From the UHGV virus genome UHGV-0349822: a stretch of DNA of 37,380 nucleotides, one strand, 5' to 3'. Made by a program: the position numbers and the translations under genes. The notes under the pieces were generated by a model. It did not search any database. It was given only the letters and a program-made list of their open reading frames with translations, and was not told the DNA's origin. This DNA is from a virus. Within the stretch, counting starts at the first letter, position 1, and every line of letters begins with the position of its first letter. Below, piece after piece: positions 4,864 to 31,684 of this stretch.

Positions 4864-5046
4864 ATGCGAAAGTTTAAAATAATTATTGAAACGGGAATAG
4901 CCGGTGGAGATTTCGAGGATGAATTCGAAGTGGATGATGATGCGACGCCTGATGAAATACATGACGAAGCAAAAGATATTTTCTTTAACTACTGCAATTA
5001 CTCATATCACGAAATAAAAGACGAAGAGGAAGAACAAAATGGCTGA
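4864..5046 (+). CDS. small highly acidic protein (60 aa)
   Basis: ORF in track; D/E-rich (FEDEFEVDDDATPDEIHDE...EIKDEEEEQ); GC-rich GNRA hairpin lies between its Shine-Dalgarno and ATG. Confidence 0.45.
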   Translation: MRKFKIIIETGIAGGDFEDEFEVDDDATPDEIHDEAKDIFFNYCNYSYHEIKDEEEEQNG

Positions 5047-5215
5047 TTTTGGTTCAACTAAATACAACGTCAGTTTTGAAGAATGGCATGAACTGTTAAT
5101 GGACTATGCAGAGTTACGTGGTGGCAGTGCTGCTGATGCTGAAGCATGGCGTGATGATTATGAAGCAGGAAAAACTCCGGTCGAAGCATATTGTGATGAG
5201 TGGGGCGATGAATGA
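5039..5215 (+). CDS. small acidic protein (58 aa)
   Basis: ATG 5039 overlaps the upstream stop; translation MADFGSTKYNVSFEEWHELLMDYAELRGGSAADAEAWRDDYEAGKTPVEAYCDEWGDE; stop TGA at 5213-5215 overlaps the next ATG. Below the ORF-track length cutoff. Confidence 0.4.
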   Translation: MADFGSTKYNVSFEEWHELLMDYAELRGGSAADAEAWRDDYEAGKTPVEAYCDEWGDE

Positions 5216-5479
5216 GCGAGGTTAATTATCAGGAAGGGCATGAAACGGCGGGGCAAGCAAAAACAGTGGCATGGCGATATCGCTACGTGAAAAAAAAGGC
5301 GTTACGGACTTTCAGGGGAAGTAGTGGTCTGGTGACTGGAAATATGTACCGAAAAAAGAGGATTGTAACGACAGGCCGAACTATGAAATTCAGGCCTTAT
5401 TCACTGCCCCGCCAGTCCCGGTTACATCAGAAGAACTGGTTAAAGCTGTGCACTTTTATGAACAACTAAAACGCGAAAA
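5212..5479 (+). pseudogene. early gene of unknown function, interrupted by IS2 (3' remainder at 6816-6867) and also split across two frames
   Basis: Two overlapping frames (5212 frame and the frame of ...SGDWKYVPKKEDCNDRPNYEIQALF...VHFYEQLKREN) run into the IS2 end at 5480. Removing IS2 plus one target-duplication copy restores ...LKRENPPASGNLITDSQIRQ*. Confidence 0.4.
5475..5479. repeat. IS2 target-site duplication (GAAAA), copy 1
   Basis: GAAAA directly abuts the IS2 terminus at 5480; identical pentamer at 6811-6815. Confidence 0.8.
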
Positions 5480-5490
5480 TGGATTTGCCC

Positions 5491-6396
5491 CTATATTTCC
5501 AGACACCTGTTATCACTTAACCCATTACTGGCCTGCTGCCGCAGATATTCCCGTGGCGAGCGATAACCCAGTGCACTATGCGGATGCCATTCGTTATAAT
5601 GCTCGAACGCCTCTGCAAGGTTCTTTGCTGCCGTTAACCCGTCTGGTTTAGGCATGATACTGATGTAGTCACGCTTTATCGTTTTCACGAAGCTCTCTGC
5701 TATGCCGTTACTCTCCGGACTCCGCACCGCCGTGTTCTTCGGTTCAAGCCCCAACATCCGGGCAAACTGCCGTGTTTCATTAGCCCGGTAGCATGAACCA
5801 TTATCCGTCAGCCACTCTACTGGAGACGCCGGAAGCTCGTTGCCGAAGCGGCGTTCCACCGCTCCCAGCATGACGTCCTGTACTGTTTCACTGTCGAAGC
5901 CGCCCGTAGTGACTGCCCAGTGCAGTGCCTCACGGTCACAGCAGTCCAGCGCGAACGTGACTCGCAGTTTTTCTCCGTTATCACAGCGGAACTCGAACCC
6001 GTCAGAGCACCATCGTTGATTGCTTTCTTTCACGGCCACTTTGCCAGTATGTGCCCGTTTCGATGGCGGTACAGCGGTTTTTCGCTCAAGCAACAGCGCA
6101 TTCTGTCGCATGATCCGGTAAACACGTTTGGCATTGATCGCAGGCATACCATCAAGTTCGGCCTGTCTGCGAAGCAGCGCCCATACCCGACGATAACCAT
6201 ACGTGGGCAGCTCTCCGATAACATGGTGTATACGGAGAAGCACATCCGTATCATCTGAGTGACGGCTGCGGCGACCATCTTTCCAGTCATCGGTTCGTCT
6301 GAGAATTACGTGCAACTGCGCACGCGACACCCGGAGACAACGGCTGACTAAGCTTACTCCCCATCCCCGGGCAATAAGGGCGCGTGCGCTATCCAC
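5491..6396 (-). CDS. insD: IS2 transposase OrfB (InsD), DDE domain
   Basis: 301-aa ORF in track; recognised as the IS2 OrfB sequence. Confidence 0.9.
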
Positions 6397-6719
6397 TTTT
6401 TTGCACGCCCGTATTCAACGGCTTCTTTAAGGAGTTCATTTTCCATCGTTTTTTTGCCGAGCAGGCGCTGGAGTTCTTTAATCTGCTTCATGGCAGCAGC
6501 AAGTTCAGAGGCAGGAACGACCTGCTCTCCTGCGGCCACAGCAGTAAGACTTCCCTCCTGGTATTGCTTGCGCCAGAGAAATAACTGGCTGGCTGCCACA
6601 CCGTGTTGCCGGGCAACAAGGGAGACCGTCATTCCCGGTTCAAAACTCTGCTGAACAATAGCGATCTTTTCCTGTGTAGTACGCCGTCTGCGTTTCTCCG
6701 GTCCTAAGACATCAATCAT
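6354..6719 (-). CDS. insC: IS2 OrfA (InsC), HTH DNA-binding transposase component
   Basis: Track ORF 6354-6764 trimmed to the [13 protein letters not shown]... start (121 aa); overlaps insD as in the IS2 OrfA/OrfB frameshift arrangement. Confidence 0.9.
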
Positions 6720-6810
6720 CTGCTCTCCAATGACTAGTCTAAAAACTAGTATTAAGACTATCACTTATTTAAGTGATATTGGTTGTCTGGAGATTCAGGG
6801 GGCCAGTCTA

Positions 6811-6815
6811 GAAAA
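6811..6815. repeat. IS2 target-site duplication (GAAAA), copy 2
   Basis: Identical to 5475-5479, directly abutting the other IS2 end. Confidence 0.8.
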
Positions 6816-7034
6816 TCCACCAGCATCCGGAAACCTGATTACAGATTCCCAGATAAGGCAATGAGCTACCTGGCGCAGAACGGGCTGATAAGTATGGGGA
6901 ATGTTTTACGATGAATATTTAGACTAAAGAGTTTGTAACGCTATGTAAGTGATTTTTTCTGGTTTAGATATTTATATATCCGGCCAAATTGAGGTGTGTT
7001 TAAATGTAATTGCACATTGATTGTAGGAGGAATA

Positions 7035-7214
7035 ATGAAAAACGCATTGCAGTTTTTGTTTGTTGCGTTCTGGTTGTTCGTATCATGTATGCCCATCATC
7101 TTCACAGCAAGGTATATGGAAAAAGTTGATGTTTTGATATTAATATTTGGATATATAAATGCCCTTTTTTTAGGGGTGTTCATGGCGGTCATGTGCATTG
7201 AATACTGGCGGTAA
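7035..7214 (+). CDS. small two-helix hydrophobic membrane protein (about 60 aa)
   Basis: In-frame ATG at 7035 with AGGAGG Shine-Dalgarno (track ORF 6996-7214); MKNALQFLFVAFWLFVSCMPIIF...LILIFGYINALFLGVFMAVMCIEYWR; AT-rich locus. Confidence 0.4.
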   Translation: MKNALQFLFVAFWLFVSCMPIIFTARYMEKVDVLILIFGYINALFLGVFMAVMCIEYWR

Positions 7215-7473
7215 ATACAGCGAACGCCATTGGTTTAGTTGGATATTTACTGTGCCGGACAAAAACGGTTTGCGGGGAAATCTTAGTTAAGTAGAATGAC
7301 TGCGGGTGCTTGAGGCTATCTGTCTCAGGCATGAACACCAAAAGGCAGATAGAGAAAAGCCCCAGTTAACATTACGCGTCCTGCAAGACGCTTAACATTA
7401 ATCTGAGGCCATATCTATGCTCTACACACGTAGGTTAGCCTCTTACGTGCCGAAAGGCAAGGAGAAGCAGGCT

Positions 7474-7629
7474 ATGAAGCAGCAAAAGGCGATGCTAATC
7501 GCCCTGATCGTCATCTGTTTAACCGTCATAGTGACGGCACTGGTAACGAGGAAAGACCTCTGCGAGGTACGAATCCGAACCGGCCAGACGGAGGTCGCTG
7601 TCTTCACAGCTTACGAACCTGAGGAGTAA
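7474..7629 (+). CDS. hok: Hok/Gef-family membrane toxin (51 aa)
   Basis: MKQQKAMLIALIVICLTVIVTALVTRKDLCEVRIRTGQTEVAVFTAYEPEE shows the Hok signature (TM helix, conserved C...EVR...EVA.F.AYE); AAGGAGAAG Shine-Dalgarno; in-frame upstream ATG at 7417. Confidence 0.8.
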   Translation: MKQQKAMLIALIVICLTVIVTALVTRKDLCEVRIRTGQTEVAVFTAYEPEE

Positions 7630-7696
7630 GAGACCAGGCGGGGGAGAATCCCTCGCCACCTCTGATGTGTCAGGCATCCTCAACGCACCCGCACTT

Positions 7697-7723
7697 AACC
7701 CGCTTCGGCGGGTTTTGTTTTTT
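7697..7723 (+). terminator. intrinsic terminator downstream of hok
   Basis: AACCCGC-TTCG-GCGGGTT hairpin followed by TTGTTTTTT. Confidence 0.55.
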
Positions 7724-19641: not shown

Positions 19642-20190
19642 ATGAAGGTTAATAAAAAGAGGCTTGCCGAAATTTTTAACGTGGACCCGCGGACGATTGA
19701 ACGCTGGCAGTCTCAGGGGCTCCCTTGCGTCTCCAAAGGCAGTAAGGGCATTGAATCTGTATTTGATACTGCCATGGCAATTCAGTGGTATGCGCAGAGG
19801 GAAACTGATATCGAAAACGAAAAGCTCCGCAAAGAACTGGCCGATTTGCGTGCGGCAGCGGAGTCAGATTTACAACCCGGCACCATTGACTATGAACGCT
19901 ACCGGCTCACAAAAGCGCAGGCAGATGCGCAGGAACTGAAAAATGCCCGTGAAGACGGAGTGGTGCTGGAAACTGAACTGTTTACCTTTATTCTGCAACG
20001 TGTGGCACAGGAGATTTCGGGGATACTTGTGCGTGTGCCGTTGACATTACAGCGTAAATATCCGGACATTTCACCATCACACCTTGATGTGGTGAAAACT
20101 GAAATCGCGAAAGCCTCCAATGTTGCAGCTAAGGCCGGTGAAAACGTGGGCGGGTGGATCGATGATTTCAGACGCACAGAAGGCAGCTAA
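19642..20190 (+). CDS. nu1: terminase small subunit (lambda Nu1-like)
   Basis: [28 protein letters not shown]...[28 protein letters not shown]... closely parallels lambda gpNu1. Confidence 0.85.
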
Positions 20191-20978
20191 TGCAGCCGGT
20201 GCGATAGCTACAGGGCTTTTATCTCTCATTATTCCTGTTCCACTGACGACAGTTCAGTGGGCCAATAAACATTATTACCTTCCTAAAGAGTCGTCTTATA
20301 CCCCGGGGCGGTGGGAAACACTGCCGTTTCAGGTTGGCATCATGAACTGTATGGGCAACGATTTGATTCGCACTGTTAACCTGATTAAATCTGCCCGTGT
20401 TGGTTATACAAAGATGTTGCTGGGAGTGGAGGCTTATTTTATTGAGCGGGGGGATCGATGGCGAAATTGTCTATCAGAGGTCAAAAAAACACGGTGTTTT
20501 CCGGGTGCTGCCGGTAAAAGGTGCATCTGTTTATGGCAAGCCGGTGATCACCATGCCAAAAACCCGCAATCAGCGGGGCGTGTATCTGTGCGAAGTGGGG
20601 ACGGACACCGCAAAAGAAATTCTCTATGCCCGTATGAAAGCCGATCCCACGCCTGCGGATGAAGCCACGTCGTATGCCATCCGTTTTCCTGATGATCCGG
20701 AGATTTTTTCGCAGACAGAGGCGCAGCAACTGGTGGCGGAAGAGCTTGTGGAGAAGTGGGAAAAAGGAAAGATGCGTCTGCTGTGGGATAACAAAAAGCG
20801 GCGTAACGAAGCGCTGGACTGCCTGGTGTATGCCTACGCGGCATTACGTGTGTCCGTGCAACGCTGGCAGCTTGATCTGGCTGTACTGGCAAAATCCCGG
20901 GAAGAAGAGACGACCCGGCCAACCCTTAAAGAACTGGCAGCGAAGCTGTCCGGAGGAGTGAATGGTTACAGTCGCTGA
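20162..20978 (+). pseudogene. A: terminase large subunit (lambda gpA-like) with about 1.1 kb internal out-of-frame deletion
   Basis: N-terminal ~95 aa (to ...LGVEAYFIE, 20162-20446) and C-terminal ~175 aa (GGIDGEIVYQRSKKHG... to 20978) both match lambda gpA but lie in different frames. Nu1-to-W distance is ~0.77 kb versus ~1.9 kb in lambda. Confidence 0.8.
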
Positions 20979-21168: not shown

Positions 21169-22757
21169 AACGAACGCCTGTCCTGATTGATGTGAACGGC
21201 GTTCCGCTTCGGGAGAGCCTCAGCTACACCGGTGGCGGTGCAGGATTTGGCGGGCAAATGGCAGAGTGGTTGCCACCCTCGCAGAGTGCCGATGCGGCCC
21301 TGCTGCCCGCGTTGCGTCTGGGGAATGCCCGTGCAGATGATCTGGTGCGCAATAACGGAATAGCGGCCAATGCGGTGGCCCTGCATAAGGATCACATTGT
21401 CGGGCATATGTTTCTGATTAGCTACCGTCCGAACTGGCGCTGGCTGGGGATGCGGGAGACCGCGGCAAAAAGTTTTGTCGATGAGGTGGAGGCGGCCTGG
21501 TCAGAATACGCAGAAGGGATGTTTGGTGAGATCGACGTGGAAGGGAAACGCACGTTTACGGAATTTATCCGTGAAGGTGTGGGCGTTCATGCGTTTAACG
21601 GCGAAATCTTTGTGCAGCCGGTCTGGGATACGGAGAGTACGCAACTGTTTCGTACGCGTTTTAAAGCCGTGAGTCCGAAACGGGTGGACACGCCAGGACA
21701 CGGTATCGGGAACCGTTTTCTGCGGGCCGGTGTGGAGGTTGATCGATATGGCCGTGCCGTTGCGTACCATATCTGTGAGGATGATTTTCCTCGCTCCGGG
21801 AGTGGACGATGGGAACGGATCCCGCGTGAACTACCCACCGGGCGTCCGGCCATGCTGCATATTTTCGAGCCGGTGGAGGACGGGCAGACCCGTGGAGCCA
21901 ATCAGTTTTACAGCGTTATGGAACGGCTGAAGATGCTGGATTCCCTGCAGGCAACACAGCTTCAGTCGGCCATAGTGAAGGCGATGTATGCAGCGACGAT
22001 TGAAAGTGACCTTGATACCGAAAAGGCCTTTGAATATATCGCCGGTGCGCCGCAGGGGCAGAAGGATAATCCGCTTATTAATATTCTGGATAAGTTCTCC
22101 ACCTGGTATGACACGAATAGCGTGACGCTGGGCGGTGTCAAAATTCCGCACCTTTTCCCCGGTGATGATCTGAAACTTCAGACCGCGCAGGATTCAGACA
22201 ATGGATTTTCGGCGCTTGAACAGGCGCTGCTGCGGTATATCGCCGCCGGTCTTGGCGTTTCCTACGAACAGTTGTCCCGTGATTACTCGAAGGTCAGTTA
22301 CTCAAGTGCCCGCGCATCCGCCAATGAGTCGTGGCGCTATTTTATGGGGCGGCGAAAATTTATTGCGTCCCGGCTGGCCACGCAGATGTTTTCCTGCTGG
22401 CTGGAAGAGGCACTTCTTCGGGGGATTATTCGTCCGCCACGGGCACGGTTTGATTTTTATCAGGCGCGATCAGCCTGGTCACGGGCTGAGTGGATTGGAG
22501 CCGGAAGAATGGCCATTGACGGGCTCAAGGAGGTTCAGGAATCAGTGATGCGCATTGAGGCCGGACTGAGCACGTATGAGAAAGAGCTGGCGCTGATGGG
22601 CGAGGATTATCAGGACATTTTCCGCCAGCAGGTCAGGGAATCTGCAGAGCGGGAAAAAGCCGGACTCTCACGTCCGGTGTGGATAGCGCAGGCGTATCAG
22701 CAGCAGATAGCGGAGAGTCGCAGGCCGGAAGAGGAGACAACACCACGTGAGACGTAA
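21165..22757 (+). CDS. B: portal protein gpB
   Basis: 530 aa; extensive match to lambda gpB (e.g. FEPVEDGQTRGAN, LLRYIAAGLGVSYEQLSR, GRMAIDGLKEVQE). Confidence 0.9.
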   Translation: MKRTPVLIDVNGVPLRESLSYTGGGAGFGGQMAEWLPPSQSADAALLPALRLGNARADDLVRNNGIAANAVALHKDHIVGHMFLISYRPNWRWLGMRETAAKSFVDEVEAAWSEYAEGMFGEIDVEGKRTFTEFIREGVGVHAFNGEIFVQPVWDTESTQLFRTRFKAVSPKRVDTPGHGIGNRFLRAGVEVDRYGRAVAYHICEDDFPRSGSGRWERIPRELPTGRPAMLHIFEPVEDGQTRGANQFYSVMERLKMLDSLQATQLQSAIVKAMYAATIESDLDTEKAFEYIAGAPQGQKDNPLINILDKFSTWYDTNSVTLGGVKIPHLFPGDDLKLQTAQDSDNGFSALEQALLRYIAAGLGVSYEQLSRDYSKVSYSSARASANESWRYFMGRRKFIASRLATQMFSCWLEEALLRGIIRPPRARFDFYQARSAWSRAEWIGAGRMAIDGLKEVQESVMRIEAGLSTYEKELALMGEDYQDIFRQQVRESAEREKAGLSRPVWIAQAYQQQIAESRRPEEETTPRET

Positions 22758-24252
22758 TCTTTCACACATTATTGCAGCAGCATTCAATGAACCGCTGCTT
22801 CTGGAGCCCGCCTATGCGCGGGTTTTCTTTTGCGCGCTGGGGCGCGAGATGGGGGCAGCAAGTCTTTCGGTACCGCAACAGCAGGTACAGCTTGATGCTC
22901 CCGGGATGCTGGCTGAAACGGACGAGTACATGGCCGGAGGTAAACGACCGGCCCGTGTTTACCGGGTGGTGAACGGTATTGCGGTACTGCCGGTGACCGG
23001 CACGCTGGTGCACCGGCTGGGGGGGATGCGGCCATTTTCCGGAATGACTGGCTATGACGGCATTGTCGCCTGTCTTCAGCAGGCAATGGCAGATAGCCAG
23101 GTGCGGGGCATACTGCTGGACATTGACAGTCCGGGCGGGCAGGCCGCCGGCGCGTTTGACTGCGCTGACATGATTTACCGCCTCCGGCAGCAGAAGCCGG
23201 TCTGGGCACTGTGTAATGACACGGCCTGTTCTGCGGCCATGCTGCTGGCGTCGGCCTGCTCCCGACGGCTGGTTACCCAGACATCCCGTATCGGTTCCAT
23301 TGGCGTGATGATGAGCCATGTCAGCTATGCCGGTCATCTGGCGCAGGCCGGTGTGGATATCACGCTGATTTACTCAGGGGCGCACAAGGTGGATGGCAAT
23401 CAGTTTGAAGCGTTGCCGGCAGAGGTTCGCCAGGACATGCAGCAGCGGATTGATGCGGCGCGCCGGATGTTTGCCGAAAAAGTGGCGATGTTTACCGGTC
23501 TGTCTATTGATGCAGTCACGGGAACAGAGGCCGCTGTTTTTGAAGGTCAGTCCGGCATTGAGGCCGGGCTGGCGGATGAATTAATCAATGCGTCGGATGC
23601 CATCAGTGTGATGGCCACGGCGCTGAACAGTAATGTCAGAGGAGGCACTATGCCGCAATTAACTGCAACGGAAGCCGCCGTGCAGGAGAACCAGCGAGTG
23701 ATGGGGATCCTGACATGCCAGGAAGCGAAAGGACGTGAACAGCTTGCCACGATGCTGGCAGGGCAACAGGGCATGAGCGTTGAACAGGCCCGGGCGATTC
23801 TGGCCGCGGCGGCACCGCAGCAGCCGGTGGCATCCGCGCAGAGTGAAGCCGATCGCATTATGGCGTGTGAAGAAGCGAACGGTCGTGAACAACTGGCGGC
23901 AACGCTGGCGGCGATGCCGGAGATGACGGTGGAAAAAGCCCGCCCGATCCTGGCGGCTGCACCACTGGCGGATGCCGGGCCCTCACTTCGTGATCAGATC
24001 ATGGCCCTGGATGAGGCAAAAGGGGCAGAAGCGCAGGCTGAAAAACTGGCGGCCTGCCCGGGAATGACCGTGGAGAGCGCCCGGGCTGTGCTGGCTGCGG
24101 GATCAGGTAAGGCAGAACCGGTCTCTGCATCCACAACCGCCCTGTTTGAACATTTCATGGCGAACCATTCACCGGCTGCGGTCCAGGGGGGCGTGTCACA
24201 GGCGTCAGAAGACGGTGATGCGGACGTGAAAATGCTCATGGCCATGCCATGA
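22747..24252 (+). CDS. C: head maturation protease / scaffold gpC (S49 family)
   Basis: 501 aa; GTG start; matches lambda gpC (AFNEPLLLEPAYARVFF, GIAVLPVTGTLV, VWALCND, TLIYSGAHKVDGN). Confidence 0.85.
   Translation: MRRNLSHIIAAAFNEPLLLEPAYARVFFCALGREMGAASLSVPQQQVQLDAPGMLAETDEYMAGGKRPARVYRVVNGIAVLPVTGTLVHRLGGMRPFSGMTGYDGIVACLQQAMADSQVRGILLDIDSPGGQAAGAFDCADMIYRLRQQKPVWALCNDTACSAAMLLASACSRRLVTQTSRIGSIGVMMSHVSYAGHLAQAGVDITLIYSGAHKVDGNQFEALPAEVRQDMQQRIDAARRMFAEKVAMFTGLSIDAVTGTEAAVFEGQSGIEAGLADELINASDAISVMATALNSNVRGGTMPQLTATEAAVQENQRVMGILTCQEAKGREQLATMLAGQQGMSVEQARAILAAAAPQQPVASAQSEADRIMACEEANGREQLAATLAAMPEMTVEKARPILAAAPLADAGPSLRDQIMALDEAKGAEAQAEKLAACPGMTVESARAVLAAGSGKAEPVSASTTALFEHFMANHSPAAVQGGVSQASEDGDADVKMLMAMP
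23690..24110 (+). repeat. three tandem in-frame copies of a roughly 45-aa module in the C-terminal scaffold region of gpC
   Basis: RVMGILTCQEAKGREQLATMLAGQQGMSVEQARAILAAA / RIMACEEANGREQLAATLAAMPEMTVEKARPILAAA / QIMALDEAKGAEAQAEKLAACPGMTVESARAVLAAG; lambda C is remembered as having one copy. Confidence 0.5.
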
Positions 24253-28258: not shown

Positions 28259-28690
28259 ATGTTTCTGAAAACAGAACAATTTGAATATAACGGTGTGTCT
28301 GTCACGCTTTCCGAATTGTCTGCGCTGCAGCGTATCGAGCATCTTGCCCTCCTGAAACGGCGTGCAGAACAGGCAGAATCCTGCGGCAACCTGCAGGTAA
28401 GCGTGGAAGATCTCGTCAGAACCGGCGCGTTTCTGGTGGCGATGTCCCTGTGGCATAACCATCCACAGAAAACGCAGTCACCGTCAATGAATGAGGCCGT
28501 GATGAAGATAGAGCAGGAAGTGCTCACCACCTGGCCTGCCGATGCCATTGCCCGGGCGGAAGACGTGGTGTTGTGCCTGTCCGGGATGATCGAAGCTGTT
28601 CGTCCGGATACTGATATTACTGAAGTGGCGAAAAATAACACGCTGACTGATGATGATTTTTCTGCGGGAAAGTCTTCGACGGCGAGCTGA
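28259..28690 (+). CDS. G: tail assembly chaperone gpG
   Basis: 143 aa; MFLKTE.FE.NGV.VTLSELSALQRIEHLAL.KR.AEQAES matches lambda G. Confidence 0.85.
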   Translation: MFLKTEQFEYNGVSVTLSELSALQRIEHLALLKRRAEQAESCGNLQVSVEDLVRTGAFLVAMSLWHNHPQKTQSPSMNEAVMKIEQEVLTTWPADAIARAEDVVLCLSGMIEAVRPDTDITEVAKNNTLTDDDFSAGKSSTAS

Positions 28691-29130
28691 ACTTTGCCCT
28701 CAGACTGGCGCGTGAGATGGGGAGACCCGACTGGCGCGCCATGCTTGCCGGGATGACATCCACCGAATATGCCGACTGGCACCGTTTTTACCGCACGCAT
28801 TATTTTCAGGATACCCAGCTGGATATGCATTTTTCCGGGCTGACGTACGCTGTACTCAGCCTGTTTTTTTGCGATCCGGATATGCATCCCTCTGATTTCA
28901 GTCTGCTTGTCCCCCGGCATGAGGAAGAGCAGGTGGAGAGGCCGGATGAGGACAAAATGCTGATGCAGAAAGCGGCAGGACTTGCCGGAGGCGTCCGGTT
29001 CGGTGGGGACGGAGGGCGCGATATTTTATCGTCTGCGGATGTGGCGGATGTCATGGTGGATGATGCCGCATTAATGATGGCTTCAGCGGGGATTCCGGGA
29101 GGTGTGAGATATGTCCCAGCCGGTTGGTGA
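28259..29130 (+). CDS. T: tail assembly chaperone G-T fusion made by -1 programmed ribosomal frameshift
   Basis: T reading frame (track ORF 28717-29130) is in the -1 frame relative to G and open back to the GGGAAAG slippery heptamer at 28666-28672. Confidence 0.7.
28666..28672 (+). promoter_or_regulatory. -1 ribosomal frameshift slippery site G GGA AAG
   Basis: Heptamer in the G frame, identical to the lambda G-T slippery sequence. Confidence 0.7.
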
Positions 29131-31684
29131 TCTTGTTATTGACCTGAGTCTGGATGCTGTCCGTTTCGATGAGCAGATGAGCCGGGTAAGGCGTCATTTT
29201 TCAGGTCTGGATACCGACGCCAGAAAAACCGCCAGTGCTGTTGAACAGGGCCTGAGCCGCCAGGCGCTGGCTGCACAAAAAGCCGGGATTTCCGTCGGGC
29301 AGTATAAAGCGGCCATGCGAACCCTGCCCGCACAGTTTACGGATATCGCCACGCAGCTTGCAGGTGGTCAGAATCCCTGGCTGATCCTGCTGCAACAGGG
29401 CGGTCAGGTGAAGGACTCCTTCGGCGGGATGATCCCCATGTTCAGGGGGCTTGCCGGTGCGATCACCCTGCCGATGGTCGGGGTCACCTCGCTGGCGGTG
29501 GCGACAGGTGCGCTGGTGTACGCCTGGTACCAGGGAGATTCCACGCTTTCAGCGTTTAATAAAACCCTGGTTCTTTCCGGTAATCAGTCCGGACTGACTG
29601 CCGATCGTATGCTGACTCTCTCAAGAGCCGGGCAGGCAGCAGGGCTGACGTTTAACCAGGCGAGAGAGTCACTGGCAGCCCTGGTGAATGCCGGTGTGCG
29701 TGGTGGTGAACAGTTTGATGCCATCAACCAGAGTGTCGCGCGTTTTGCGTCTGCATCCGGTGTGGAGGTGGATAAAGTCGCTGAAGCCTTCGGGAAGCTG
29801 ACCACTGACCCGACGTCGGGACTGATGGCGATGGCGCGCCAGTTCCGTAACGTGACGGCAGAGCAGATTGCGTATGTTGCACAGCTGCAGCGTTCCGGAG
29901 ACGAGGCCGGGGCATTGCAGGCGGCGAACGATATCGCCACGAAAGGCTTTGATGAGCAGACCCGTCGCCTGAAAGAAAACATGGGAACACTGGAGACCTG
30001 GGCGGATAAAACAGGGAAGGCATTCAAATCGATGTGGGATGCCATTCTGGATATCGGTCGTCCGGAATCCTCAGCGGATATGCTCGCCAGTGCGCAGAAG
30101 GCATTTGATGAGGCGGATAAAAAATGGCAGTGGTACCAGAGCCGGAGCCAGCGCCGCGGTAAAACCTCCTCTTTCCGGGCCAACCTTCAGGGCGCATGGG
30201 ATGACCGGGAAAATGCCCGTCTGGGTCTGGCAGCGGCAACGCTGCAGTCGGATATGGAAAAAGCCGGTGAACTGGCGGCAAGGGACAGGGCTGAGCGTGA
30301 GTCGTCACAGCTGAAGTATACCGGAGAGGCGCAGAAGGCGTATGAGCGCCTGCTGACGCCACTGGAGAAATATACCGCCCGGCAGGAAGAGCTGAATAAG
30401 GCCCTGAAAGACGGGAAAATCCTGCAGGCGGATTACAACACGCTGATGGCGTCGGCAAAAAAGGATTATGAGTCGACGCAGAAAAAGCCGTCCGGTGTGA
30501 AGGTGTCTGCCGGTGAGCGCCAGGAAGACCAGGCGCATGCAGCCCTGCTGGCGCTTGAAACCGAGCTCAGGACGCTGGAAAAACACAGCGGTGTGAATGA
30601 GAAAATCAGCCAGCAGCGCCGGGATTTATGGGAAGCGGAAAATCAGTATGTGGTCCTGAAAGAGGCCGCCACGAAACGGCAGTTATCTGAGCAGGAAAAA
30701 TCCCTGCTGGCCCATGAGAAAGAGACGCTGGAGTACAAACGCCAGCTGGCTGAGCTGGGCGACAAGATTGAACACCAGAAACGGCTGAATGAGCTGGCAC
30801 AGCAGGCGGCGCGGTTTGAACAGCAGCAGAGCGCGAAGCAGGCGGCAATCAGCGCAAAAGCCCGCGGACTCACCGACCGTCAGGCGCAGCGGGAGTCGGA
30901 AGAGCAGCGCCTTCGTGAGGTGTACGGTGATAATCCGGCTGCGCTGGCGAAGGCCACATCTGCACTGAAGAACACCTGGTCTGCGGAGGAGCAGCTTCGT
31001 GGAAGCTGGATGGCCGGGATGAAGTCCGGCTGGGGCGAGTGGGCGGAAAGTGCGACGGACAGTTTTTCGCAGGTTAAAAACGCGGCCACGCAGACCTTTG
31101 ACGGTATTGCACAGAATATGGCAGCGATGCTGACCGGCAGCGAACAGAACTGGCGTGGTTTCACCCGTTCTGTGCTGTCCATGCTGACAGAGATTTTTCT
31201 GAAGCAGGCGATGGTGGGGATAGTCGGGAGTATCGGCAGCGCCATTGGCGGGGCTGTTGGTGGTGGCGCATCCGCGTCAGGCGGTACAGCCATTCAGGCT
31301 GCGGCGGCGAACTTCCATTTCGCGACCGGGGGATTTACGGGGACGGGGGGTAAATATGAACCTGCGGGGATTGTTCATCGCGGGGAGTTTGTCTTCACGA
31401 AGGAGGCGACCAGCCGGATTGGTGTCGGCAATCTGTACCGCCTGATGCGGGGCTATGCGGAAGGTGGTTATGTCGGCGGTGCCGGAAGTCCGGCGCAGAT
31501 GCGGCGGGCGGAAGGCATTAATTTTAATCAGAACAATCACGTGGTGATTCAGAACGACGGCCCCAACGGGCGGGCAGGGCCGCAGCTGATGAAAGCGGTG
31601 TATGAGATGGCCCGCAAGGGGGCACAGGATGAACTCCGGCTGCAGTTGCGTGATGGCGGTATGTTATCAGGGAGCGGTGGATGA
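29111..31684 (+). CDS. H: tail tape-measure protein gpH
   Basis: 857 aa; long alpha-helical/coiled-coil protein with Gly-rich C-terminal region at the lambda H position and of similar length. Confidence 0.9.
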   Translation: MSQPVGDLVIDLSLDAVRFDEQMSRVRRHFSGLDTDARKTASAVEQGLSRQALAAQKAGISVGQYKAAMRTLPAQFTDIATQLAGGQNPWLILLQQGGQVKDSFGGMIPMFRGLAGAITLPMVGVTSLAVATGALVYAWYQGDSTLSAFNKTLVLSGNQSGLTADRMLTLSRAGQAAGLTFNQARESLAALVNAGVRGGEQFDAINQSVARFASASGVEVDKVAEAFGKLTTDPTSGLMAMARQFRNVTAEQIAYVAQLQRSGDEAGALQAANDIATKGFDEQTRRLKENMGTLETWADKTGKAFKSMWDAILDIGRPESSADMLASAQKAFDEADKKWQWYQSRSQRRGKTSSFRANLQGAWDDRENARLGLAAATLQSDMEKAGELAARDRAERESSQLKYTGEAQKAYERLLTPLEKYTARQEELNKALKDGKILQADYNTLMASAKKDYESTQKKPSGVKVSAGERQEDQAHAALLALETELRTLEKHSGVNEKISQQRRDLWEAENQYVVLKEAATKRQLSEQEKSLLAHEKETLEYKRQLAELGDKIEHQKRLNELAQQAARFEQQQSAKQAAISAKARGLTDRQAQRESEEQRLREVYGDNPAALAKATSALKNTWSAEEQLRGSWMAGMKSGWGEWAESATDSFSQVKNAATQTFDGIAQNMAAMLTGSEQNWRGFTRSVLSMLTEIFLKQAMVGIVGSIGSAIGGAVGGGASASGGTAIQAAAANFHFATGGFTGTGGKYEPAGIVHRGEFVFTKEATSRIGVGNLYRLMRGYAEGGYVGGAGSPAQMRRAEGINFNQNNHVVIQNDGPNGRAGPQLMKAVYEMARKGAQDELRLQLRDGGMLSGSGG

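What the first reader, a model, noticed from the sequence alone, without database searches (positions are those of the whole stretch)
5212..6867. Complete IS2 with intact GAAAA target duplications disrupts an early gene that is also frame-split at A-runs
IS2 (1331 bp, 5480-6810) is flanked by identical 5-bp GAAAA repeats (5475-5479 and 6811-6815), so it arrived by transposition and the insertion can be computationally reverted. The host gene upstream is already split between two frames, and the two frames would be connected by a -1 shift at A AAA AAG heptamers (5292-5298 and 5349-5355). This is either a decayed pseudogene or, less likely, a frameshift-expressed gene. The downstream frame has no start codon of its own.
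Basis: seen in the sequence. Interest (0 to 1): 0.45.

Follow-up and report, generated by a model that had tools for sequence, protein, structure and literature searches.

The report
IS2 inserted in a dead prophage gene
An intact IS2 insertion sequence, still flanked by its 5-bp target duplication, sits in a small gene of unknown function in a Rac-like E. coli prophage; that gene had already been killed by a stop codon and an A-run frameshift, so this is ordinary prophage decay that standard annotation already flags.

Summary
A complete 1331-bp IS2 lies at 5480-6810 on the minus strand, flanked by GAAAA at 5475-5479 and 6811-6815. Removing it in silico gives a sequence 100% identical to an uninterrupted site in E. 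coli FDAARGOS_536. Only 34 of 5426 complete genomes carry the IS2 junction.

The host gene belongs to PHROG 660 (function unknown) and lies in the delayed-early region of a Rac-like prophage. Homologues are single-frame proteins of 104-171 aa. Compared with them, the window allele has:
- an A6-to-A8 expansion (+2) at 5290-5297;

The same TAG occurs with A6, A7, A8 and A9 runs in other strains. The homopolymer is therefore drifting in a gene that was already dead.

A -1 shift at the first heptamer hits that TAG after 8 codons. The second heptamer is at 5352-5358, not 5349-5355. It has no stimulatory structure, is not conserved in the family, and in this window would read into IS2.

NCBI's PGAP annotation already calls 5212-5480 "frameshifted; internal stop; incomplete". 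Verdict: a decayed pseudogene plus a late IS2 insertion, already known, low interest.

The parts
5212..5479 (+). 5' part of the pseudogene (PHROG 660 family, function unknown). The ATG is at 5212. Frame 1 is homologous up to the A-run; from 5298 on the homologous frame is frame 0.
   Evidence: PGAP on the near-identical ST648 chromosome annotates 5212-5480 as 'frameshifted; internal stop; incomplete'.
5290..5297 (+). A8 homopolymer. It is +2 relative to the A6 of intact alleles (GTG AAA AAA GGC) and is the frameshift lesion. It contains the first AAAAAAG heptamer (5292-5298).
   Evidence: Alignments. A6, A7, A8 and A9 variants are seen among near-identical alleles.
5322..5324 (+). TAG stop in the ancestral frame (frame 0). 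Intact alleles have a sense codon here, for example AAT CTG TGG in L003; an NCBI homologue, P0022, has Q.
5352..5358 (+). Second AAAAAAG heptamer, in phase for a -1 shift from frame 1 to frame 0. This A6 run has the same length in all alleles compared. Most family members read ACA AAA (T K) here, so it is not a lesion and not conserved.
   Evidence: There is no significant downstream structure.
5475..5479 (.). Left copy of the 5-bp target-site duplication GAAAA.
   Evidence: The empty-site alleles carry a single GAAAA.
5480..6810 (-). Complete IS2 (IS3 family), 1331 bp. The 41-bp right inverted repeat is at 5480-5520 and the 42-bp left inverted repeat at 6769-6810.
6354..6719 (-). IS2 orfA (insC), 121 aa, identical in protein sequence to K-12 InsC1.
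   Evidence: PGAP annotation.
5491..6396 (-). IS2 orfB (insD), 301 aa, no internal stops, 11 aa differences from K-12 InsD1. It is expressed as a 409-aa OrfAB fusion by -1 frameshifting.
   Evidence: PGAP annotates 'IS3 family transposase, programmed frameshift' at 5491-6719.
6396..6402 (-). IS2's own A AAA AAG slippery heptamer (IS coordinate 409). This is the only heptamer in the finding's range (5212-6867) that lies in an annotated programmed frameshift.
6811..6815 (.). Right copy of the 5-bp target-site duplication GAAAA.
6816..6864 (+). 3' end of the 104-aa form of the gene (...NPPASGNLITDSQIRQ, stop at 6862-6864), continuous with frame 0 of 5298-5479 once IS2 and one GAAAA are removed.
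6830..6914 (+). Out-of-frame relic of the ancestral C-terminus (KPDYRFPDKAMSYLAQNGLISMGNVLR, stop at 6912-6914). One extra G at 6829-6830 (GG to GGG, as in L015) would put it in frame.
   Evidence: BLASTP to the C-termini of P0012 and P0066, E = 4e-09 each. The 121-aa allele P0180/L015 is shown.

Best explanation
The locus is a small delayed-early gene of a Rac-like lambdoid prophage. It lies between the replication genes and hokD, the DUF968 gene, rusA and Q. It belongs to PHROG 660, whose function is unknown, and it has decayed in several steps.

1. Loss of the ancestral C-terminus. A 57-nt segment still present in E. coli W is missing, and a one-base difference (GG versus GGG at 6829-6830) leaves the conserved ...PDKAMSYLxxNGLIS... 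tail out of frame.
2. A nonsense codon, TAG at 5322-5324.
3. Slippage of an A6 run to A8 at 5290-5297.
4. Last, insertion of an intact IS2. The IS3-family copy-out/paste-in mechanism produced the usual 5-bp duplication, here GAAAA.

Shown here: every lesion, the empty site, the intact alleles, the intactness of IS2, and the rarity of the IS2-bearing allele.

Inferred:
- The order of steps 1-3, from parsimony: the TAG is shared by the A6, A7, A8 and A9 alleles.
- The IS2 insertion was selectively neutral for this gene, because the gene was already dead.
- IS2 may add transcriptional polarity on the way to the late-gene activator Q in a prophage that is already defective; the window also has a 1.1-kb deletion in terL.

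No functional product of the host gene is expected from this window.
For: - IS2 boundaries and target duplication.
- IS2 identity and intactness: colinear with K-12 IS2A; InsC 0 and InsD 11 aa differences, inverted repeats of 42 and 41 bp, its own heptamer retained. K-12 IS2A likewise splits yaiX and has a 5-bp duplication, ATTAC.
- Empty site: 100% identity over 626 nt in FDAARGOS_536. PGAP marks the gene there 'frameshifted; internal stop'.
- Intact allele: WP_001529162.1, 104 aa, has A6 and no TAG.
- Family: 328 homologues with E <= 0.001. The 120 best listed include many of 104-171 aa, and the 12 aligned are colinear in one frame.
- PHROG 660: E = 3.6e-31 over residues 2-99 of the intact protein, but only residues 2-31 of the window's frame-1 ORF.
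- The TAG co-occurs with A6 (L004, L013), A7 (L002), A8 (window, L001) and A9 (L014).
- The IS2 junction is found in 34 of 5426 genomes, while 1338 genomes hold at least 80% of the reverted sequence.
- The broken and intact products are both common: the exact 85-aa and 104-aa products are each on at least 1000 contigs.
- PGAP annotates the same coordinates as a pseudogene in the ST648 chromosome.
Against: - Two rare alleles restore the reading frame by a +1 insertion downstream of the A8 run: L007 (one contig, seen in two samples) and L008-L011 (10 contigs). This could mean the C-terminal part is still worth having in some lineages.
- The A9 and GGG alleles each rest on one short Logan contig and could be assembly errors.
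- The order of the TAG and the A-run change is a parsimony argument that recombination could confound.
- No expression data were available.
Confidence: 0.9

Rival explanations
1. The gene is expressed by -1 ribosomal frameshifting. Ribosomes start at 5212 in frame 1 and slip at A AAA AAG (5352-5358) into frame 0, so they bypass both the A8 frameshift and the TAG. In IS-free strains they would make a roughly 105-aa protein with about 20 replaced residues.
For: - The heptamer is in the right phase, and frame 0 is open from 5325 to the natural stop in the reverted sequence.
- A AAA AAG is among the most efficient E. coli slippery motifs when stimulators are present (PMC4066793).
- Natural alleles that bridge the same interval in frame 1 and then return to frame 0 exist: P0005/L007 and P0092/L008-L011.
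Against: - There is no stimulatory structure at the usual spacing. The only hairpin starts 14 nt downstream, at -8.7 kcal/mol with z = -1.5. The longer folds give z between -0.8 and +0.8.
- Without stimulators, heptamers gave at most about 10 times a 0.055% background.
- The two-frame architecture is absent from homologues. Most read ACA AAA at this site.
- Near-identical alleles carry A6, A7 or A9, which gives different or no frame offsets.
- In this window the shifted frame runs into IS2 and ends at 5651, so the native C-terminus cannot be made.
Confidence: 0.03
2. The 85-aa frame-1 ORF (5212-5469) is itself the functional gene in this lineage, and IS2, which lands 10 nt after its stop codon, does not disrupt it.
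For: - The ORF is intact, starts with ATG overlapping the upstream stop (ATGA at 5212-5215), and ends before IS2.
- Its exact product is predicted on at least 1000 contigs.
Against: - From residue 32 on it has no similarity to the family. That part is the out-of-frame reading of a conserved coding sequence.
- Sister alleles with A6, A7 or A9 do not keep this frame.
- PGAP treats it as a pseudogene.
- Its abundance is explained by spread of one near-identical prophage allele: 620 records are at least 99% identical to the reverted query.
Confidence: 0.03
3. The A-run is a phase-variable contingency switch (A6 to A9) that turns the gene on and off.
For: Four run lengths occur among otherwise near-identical alleles.
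Against: - All the A7, A8 and A9 alleles inspected also carry the TAG, so none of these lengths restores an open ancestral frame.
- Both intact alleles examined at the DNA level (L003, L015) have A6. No TAG-free allele with another run length was seen.
- An 8-base run is short for efficient phase variation (general knowledge, not tested here).
Confidence: 0.02
4. The A8 run or the TAG is a sequencing or assembly error in this window.
For: Homopolymer indels are a common error type (general knowledge).
Against: The same sequence is 100% identical in independent complete genomes (34 genomes carry the IS2 junction). The exact frame-1 product is seen on at least 1000 contigs.
Confidence: 0.01

Closest known systems
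IS2 of E. coli K-12 (for example IS2A, which splits the yaiX pseudogene), IS3 family
   Same: Both are 1331 bp with imperfect terminal inverted repeats of 42 and 41 bp. Both have orfA/orfB with an A AAA AAG -1 frameshift site and a 5-bp target duplication, and both interrupt a gene.
   Different: The window copy differs from K-12 IS2A at 57 nucleotides (95.7% identity). InsC is identical and InsD differs at 11 residues. This variant is the one found at 100% identity in other non-K-12 genomes.
Programmed -1 frameshifting at A AAA AAG (dnaX, IS3-family transposases)
   Same: The same heptamer occurs in the correct phase at 5292-5298 and 5352-5358 of the host gene.
   Different: There is no stimulatory structure at the usual spacing and the site is not conserved in homologues. 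The first site leads into a TAG, and the two-frame layout is a recent +2 mutation. The resemblance is accidental.
Pseudogenes of cryptic lambdoid prophages (Rac/Qin type) as annotated by NCBI PGAP
   Same: A small early-region ORF of unknown function is broken by a homopolymer frameshift, a nonsense codon and an IS element. It sits in a prophage with further damage, namely a terL deletion.
   Different: Nothing of substance. This exact locus is already annotated as 'frameshifted; internal stop; incomplete' in RefSeq genomes.

Membership tests
IS2 (IS3 family) | Length of about 1331 bp and colinearity with reference IS2 | tested here: met
   1331 bp, with no indels and 57 mismatches against the K-12 feature annotated 'insertion sequence:IS2A'.
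IS2 (IS3 family) | Imperfect terminal inverted repeats | tested here: met
   The 42-bp and 41-bp ends align with one gap. The outer part is conserved and the inner 10 bases are identical.
IS2 (IS3 family) | Two overlapping ORFs (orfA/orfB) joined by -1 frameshifting at A AAA AAG | tested here: met
   OrfA is 121 aa and OrfB 301 aa, both without internal stops. The heptamer is at IS coordinate 409, and the conceptual fusion is 409 aa. PGAP annotates 'programmed frameshift'.
IS2 (IS3 family) | 5-bp target-site duplication and an identifiable empty site | tested here: met
   GAAAA on both sides. A single GAAAA is present in the uninterrupted alleles, with 100% identity. K-12 IS2A has the 5-bp duplication ATTAC.
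IS2 (IS3 family) | Transposition activity of this copy | not testable with these tools
   This can only be inferred from the intact ORFs and ends.
Programmed -1 ribosomal frameshift gene | Slippery X XXY YYZ heptamer in the zero-frame phase | tested here: met
   A AAA AAG at 5292-5298 and 5352-5358, both in phase with the 5212 frame.
Programmed -1 ribosomal frameshift gene | Stimulatory downstream structure at the usual short spacing, or an upstream SD-like element | tested here: not met
   Folds downstream of both heptamers are no more stable than shuffles (z from +0.8 to -1.5). The only hairpin starts 14 nt after the second heptamer. By reading the sequence, there is no clear SD-like element; only GGTG lies 17 nt upstream.
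Programmed -1 ribosomal frameshift gene | Conservation of the heptamer and of the two-frame architecture among homologues | tested here: not met
   Homologues are single ORFs with A6 at the first site and mostly ACA AAA at the second.
Programmed -1 ribosomal frameshift gene | The shifted frame is open to a meaningful C-terminus | tested here: not met
   The first heptamer leads to TAG after 8 codons. The second leads into IS2 in this window, ending at 5651. It would be met only in the IS-free allele.
PHROG 660 (phage protein family of unknown function) | Significant full-length match to the family profile | tested here: met
   The intact allele scores E = 3.6e-31 over residues 2-99. The window's frame-1 ORF matches only residues 2-31. 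The conceptually repaired window protein is 91-92% identical to its two closest aligned homologues, P0002 and P0005. Pfam, NCBIfam and PDB sequence searches give no significant match.

The most novel reading that the evidence does not exclude
In IS-free strains that carry the A8+TAG allele, a low level of near-full-length protein is made by unstimulated -1 slippage at the second A AAA AAG heptamer, a 'savior' frameshift. The rare +1 suppressor alleles (L007; L008-L011) would then show that reading the 5298-5352 interval in the alternative frame is tolerated and sometimes selected. The gene would be leaky rather than dead.
Probability: 0.04. Interest if true: 0.25.

Novelty: already known. Interest (0 to 1): 0.07.

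Why it matters
It matters little. The locus is a clean, fully reconstructable example of stepwise prophage gene decay: a C-terminal frameshift, a nonsense codon, homopolymer drift and then an IS insertion. The IS2 junction is a lineage marker present in 34 of 5426 complete E. coli genomes, including the strain named ST648. It also illustrates that A AAA AAG heptamers lying in phase next to a frame break are not evidence of recoding. Nothing here bears on an open question.

Tried and rejected
- I first took proteins P0182 and P0183, which show 'Q' at the TAG position, as proof of a CAG ancestor. Their DNA (L013, L014) has TAG, and the look-up says 'translates_to_query: no'. The Q is therefore an artefact of how those contigs were translated. 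A real Q at this position remains only in NCBI homologues such as P0022, so CAG-to-TAG is an inference.\n- Pfam, NCBIfam and PDB sequence searches for the gene family found nothing significant, so the family's function stays unknown.\n- The consensus promoter/terminator scan of 5000-7700 gave nothing above chance, so IS2 polarity remains an inference.\n- One paper retrieved for the IS2 target duplication (PMC11708052) uses 'IS2' only as a junction label and was useless. The 5-bp rule was instead checked directly on K-12 IS2A.\n- A position-by-position comparison of the window with CP008697 failed because of a 1111-bp indel. BLAST resolved it.\n- I considered sequencing error, phase variation and the 85-aa ORF as the true gene, and rejected each (see the rival explanations).

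Full report
**The observation.** Reading 4900-7300 and re-indexing with a script confirms a 1331-bp element at 5480-6810. Its ends are TGGATTTGCCCC... and ...GGGGGCCAGTCTA, and GAAAA lies at 5475-5479 and 6811-6815. The element is on the minus strand. It is colinear, without indels, with the feature annotated 'insertion sequence:IS2A' in E. coli K-12 MG1655 (57 mismatches, 95.7% identity). It is 100% identical to copies in other genomes.

The IS2 copy is intact:
- OrfA/InsC (6354-6719, minus strand) is identical in protein sequence to the K-12 protein.
- OrfB/InsD (5491-6396, minus strand) has 11 substitutions and no stops.
- The terminal inverted repeats are 42 and 41 bp.
- IS2's own A AAA AAG frameshift heptamer is present at 6396-6402 on the minus strand. 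The conceptual OrfAB fusion is 409 aa.

K-12 IS2A also has a 5-bp duplication, ATTAC. A 5-bp match has a chance probability of about 1/1024. The stronger proof is the empty site. Removing 5480-6815 in silico gives a 626-nt sequence that is 100% identical to an uninterrupted locus in strain FDAARGOS_536. In all, 1338 genomes hold at least 80% of it. The IS2 junction itself occurs in only 34 of 5426 complete genomes, including the strain named ST648.

**The host gene and its frames.** The ATG ORF 5212-5469 (85 aa) is in frame 1 and stops 10 nt before IS2. After reversion, frame 0 reads ...GVTDFQGK*WSGDWKYVPKKEDCNDRPNYEIQALFTAPPVPVTSEELVKAVHFYEQLKRENPPASGNLITDSQIRQ*.

- The first heptamer is at 5292-5298, inside an A8 run (5290-5297).
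A -1 shift at the first heptamer therefore ends after 8 codons.
- The restored ORF stops at 6862-6864.
- The downstream frame has no ATG. Its first start-like codon is GTG at 5448.
- AAAAAAG is not enriched in the window: 11 observed against 6.7 +/- 2.6 expected.

**Comparison with other alleles.**
- Strain 10034292-3 carries an uninterrupted, unshifted 104-aa gene (WP_001529162.1). It has GTG AAA AAA GGC (A6) where the window has A8, and GAG AAT CTG TGG where the window has GGG AAG TAG TGG.
- A database search found 328 homologues with E <= 0.001. The 120 best listed include many of 104-171 aa, and the 12 aligned are colinear in a single frame. They share a conserved core, AWRYRYVKK...GDWKYVP.KEDCNDRPNYEIQALF, and have variable N- and C-terminal extensions.
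- The family is PHROG 660, of unknown function. The intact protein matches at E = 3.6e-31 over residues 2-99. The window's 85-aa ORF matches only residues 2-31, that is, up to the A-run.
- Pfam, NCBIfam and PDB sequence searches gave no significant match.

The window allele is therefore a frameshifted (+2) and nonsense-mutated copy. The same TAG is found with A6 (E. coli W, L004; L013), A7 (strain 2 HS-C, L002), A8 (the window; L001) and A9 (L014). The simplest reading is that the TAG came first and the homopolymer has since drifted without constraint. IS2 came last, because an otherwise identical IS-free allele exists and the IS-bearing allele is rare.

Broken and intact alleles are both abundant. 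The exact 85-aa and 104-aa products are each seen on at least 1000 contigs, and the 36-aa A6+TAG product on 75 contigs.

**Even the 104-aa form is truncated.**
- The stretch 6830-6914, in another frame, encodes KPDYRFPDKAMSYLAQNGLISMGNVLR*. This matches the C-termini of 171-aa and 132-aa homologues (E = 4e-09 each).
- A 121-aa allele (P0180/L015) with GGG instead of GG at 6829-6830 has this tail in frame.
- E. coli W retains a 57-nt segment that is missing from the window.

**Existing annotation and context.** The first 20.4 kb of the window are almost identical to the chromosome of strain ST648 (CP008697). There PGAP annotates 5212-5480 as a pseudogene ('frameshifted; internal stop; incomplete; missing C-terminus') and 5491-6719 as 'IS3 family transposase, programmed frameshift'.

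The surroundings are a Rac-like lambdoid prophage. Upstream lie dicB, racR, a YdaT-family gene, replication genes and a DUF977 gene. Downstream lie hokD/sok, a DUF968 gene, rusA, Q, and then lysis, head and tail genes.

**Could the gene be expressed by recoding?** Formally, a -1 slip at 5352-5358 would carry ribosomes from frame 1 into frame 0 past the TAG. Six points argue against this being a programmed event:
1. Folding of the RNA downstream of both heptamers is no better than shuffled controls (z from +0.8 to -1.5). The only hairpin, at -8.7 kcal/mol, begins 14 nt after the heptamer.
2. In the systematic E. coli study, heptamers without stimulators gave at most about ten times a 0.055% background (PMC4066793).
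3. The second heptamer is not conserved. Most homologues read ACA AAA there.
4. The two-frame layout is absent from homologues.
5. Sister alleles have frame offsets of 0, +1 and +3.
6. In this window frame 0 runs into IS2 and ends at 5651.

One observation points the other way. Two rare alleles restore the frame by a +1 insertion. One has T to TT just after the TAG (L007/P0005). The other has AA to AAA at CCG-AAC (L008-L011/P0092, 10 contigs from one sequencing series). These may be second-site suppressors under selection or neutral accidents. The numbers are too small to tell.

**Verdict.** The feature is ordinary and already annotated in RefSeq.

Noticed in passing
window about 20447 (ORFs 20120-20662 and 20397-20978): Relative to the near-identical ST648 prophage (CP008697), the window lacks 1111 bp inside the large terminase gene, which is split into two short ORFs. 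This is a further sign that the prophage is defective.
   Followed up: partly
window 22747-24252: The S49-family head protease/scaffold ORF is intact (501 aa) in the window. In CP008697 it is annotated as frameshifted and split into 103-aa and 408-aa ORFs.
   Followed up: partly
L007 1501-1818; L008-L011 (for example L008 1501-1818): Two independent +1 insertions in the A8+TAG background restore a 105-aa ORF by reading past the TAG in the alternative frame. They may be second-site suppressors.
   Followed up: partly
L013 601-915; L014 385-702 (proteins P0183, P0182): The protein collection holds products in which the in-frame TAG is rendered as Q, although the DNA has TAG. This is evidently a translation or gene-calling artefact and could mislead homology-based repair of pseudogenes.
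   Followed up: yes
window 6816-6827, 9 nt right of the IS2 target: Family members diverge completely just after ...CGC GAA AAT CCA CCA (ENPP). This mosaic boundary almost coincides with the IS2 insertion point and is probably a coincidence.
   Followed up: no
window 7035-7214 (+), within ORF 6996-7214: A small, very hydrophobic ORF (59-72 aa, MKNALQFLFVAFWLF...) lies between the pseudogene and hokD. It is called as a gene on Logan contigs but is not annotated by PGAP.
   Followed up: no
window 7304-7629: A complete hok/sok type I toxin-antitoxin locus: Rfam sok at 117 bits over 7304-7479, and hokD CDS at 7474-7629.
   Followed up: partly
window 5480-6810: The 57 differences from K-12 IS2A leave InsC unchanged; all 11 amino-acid changes fall in InsD.
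   Followed up: partly
window about 28260-29131 (L006 29371-30242): A gpG/gpT tail assembly chaperone pair, the classical lambdoid programmed -1 frameshift, lies in the window. The slippery site was not inspected.
   Followed up: no
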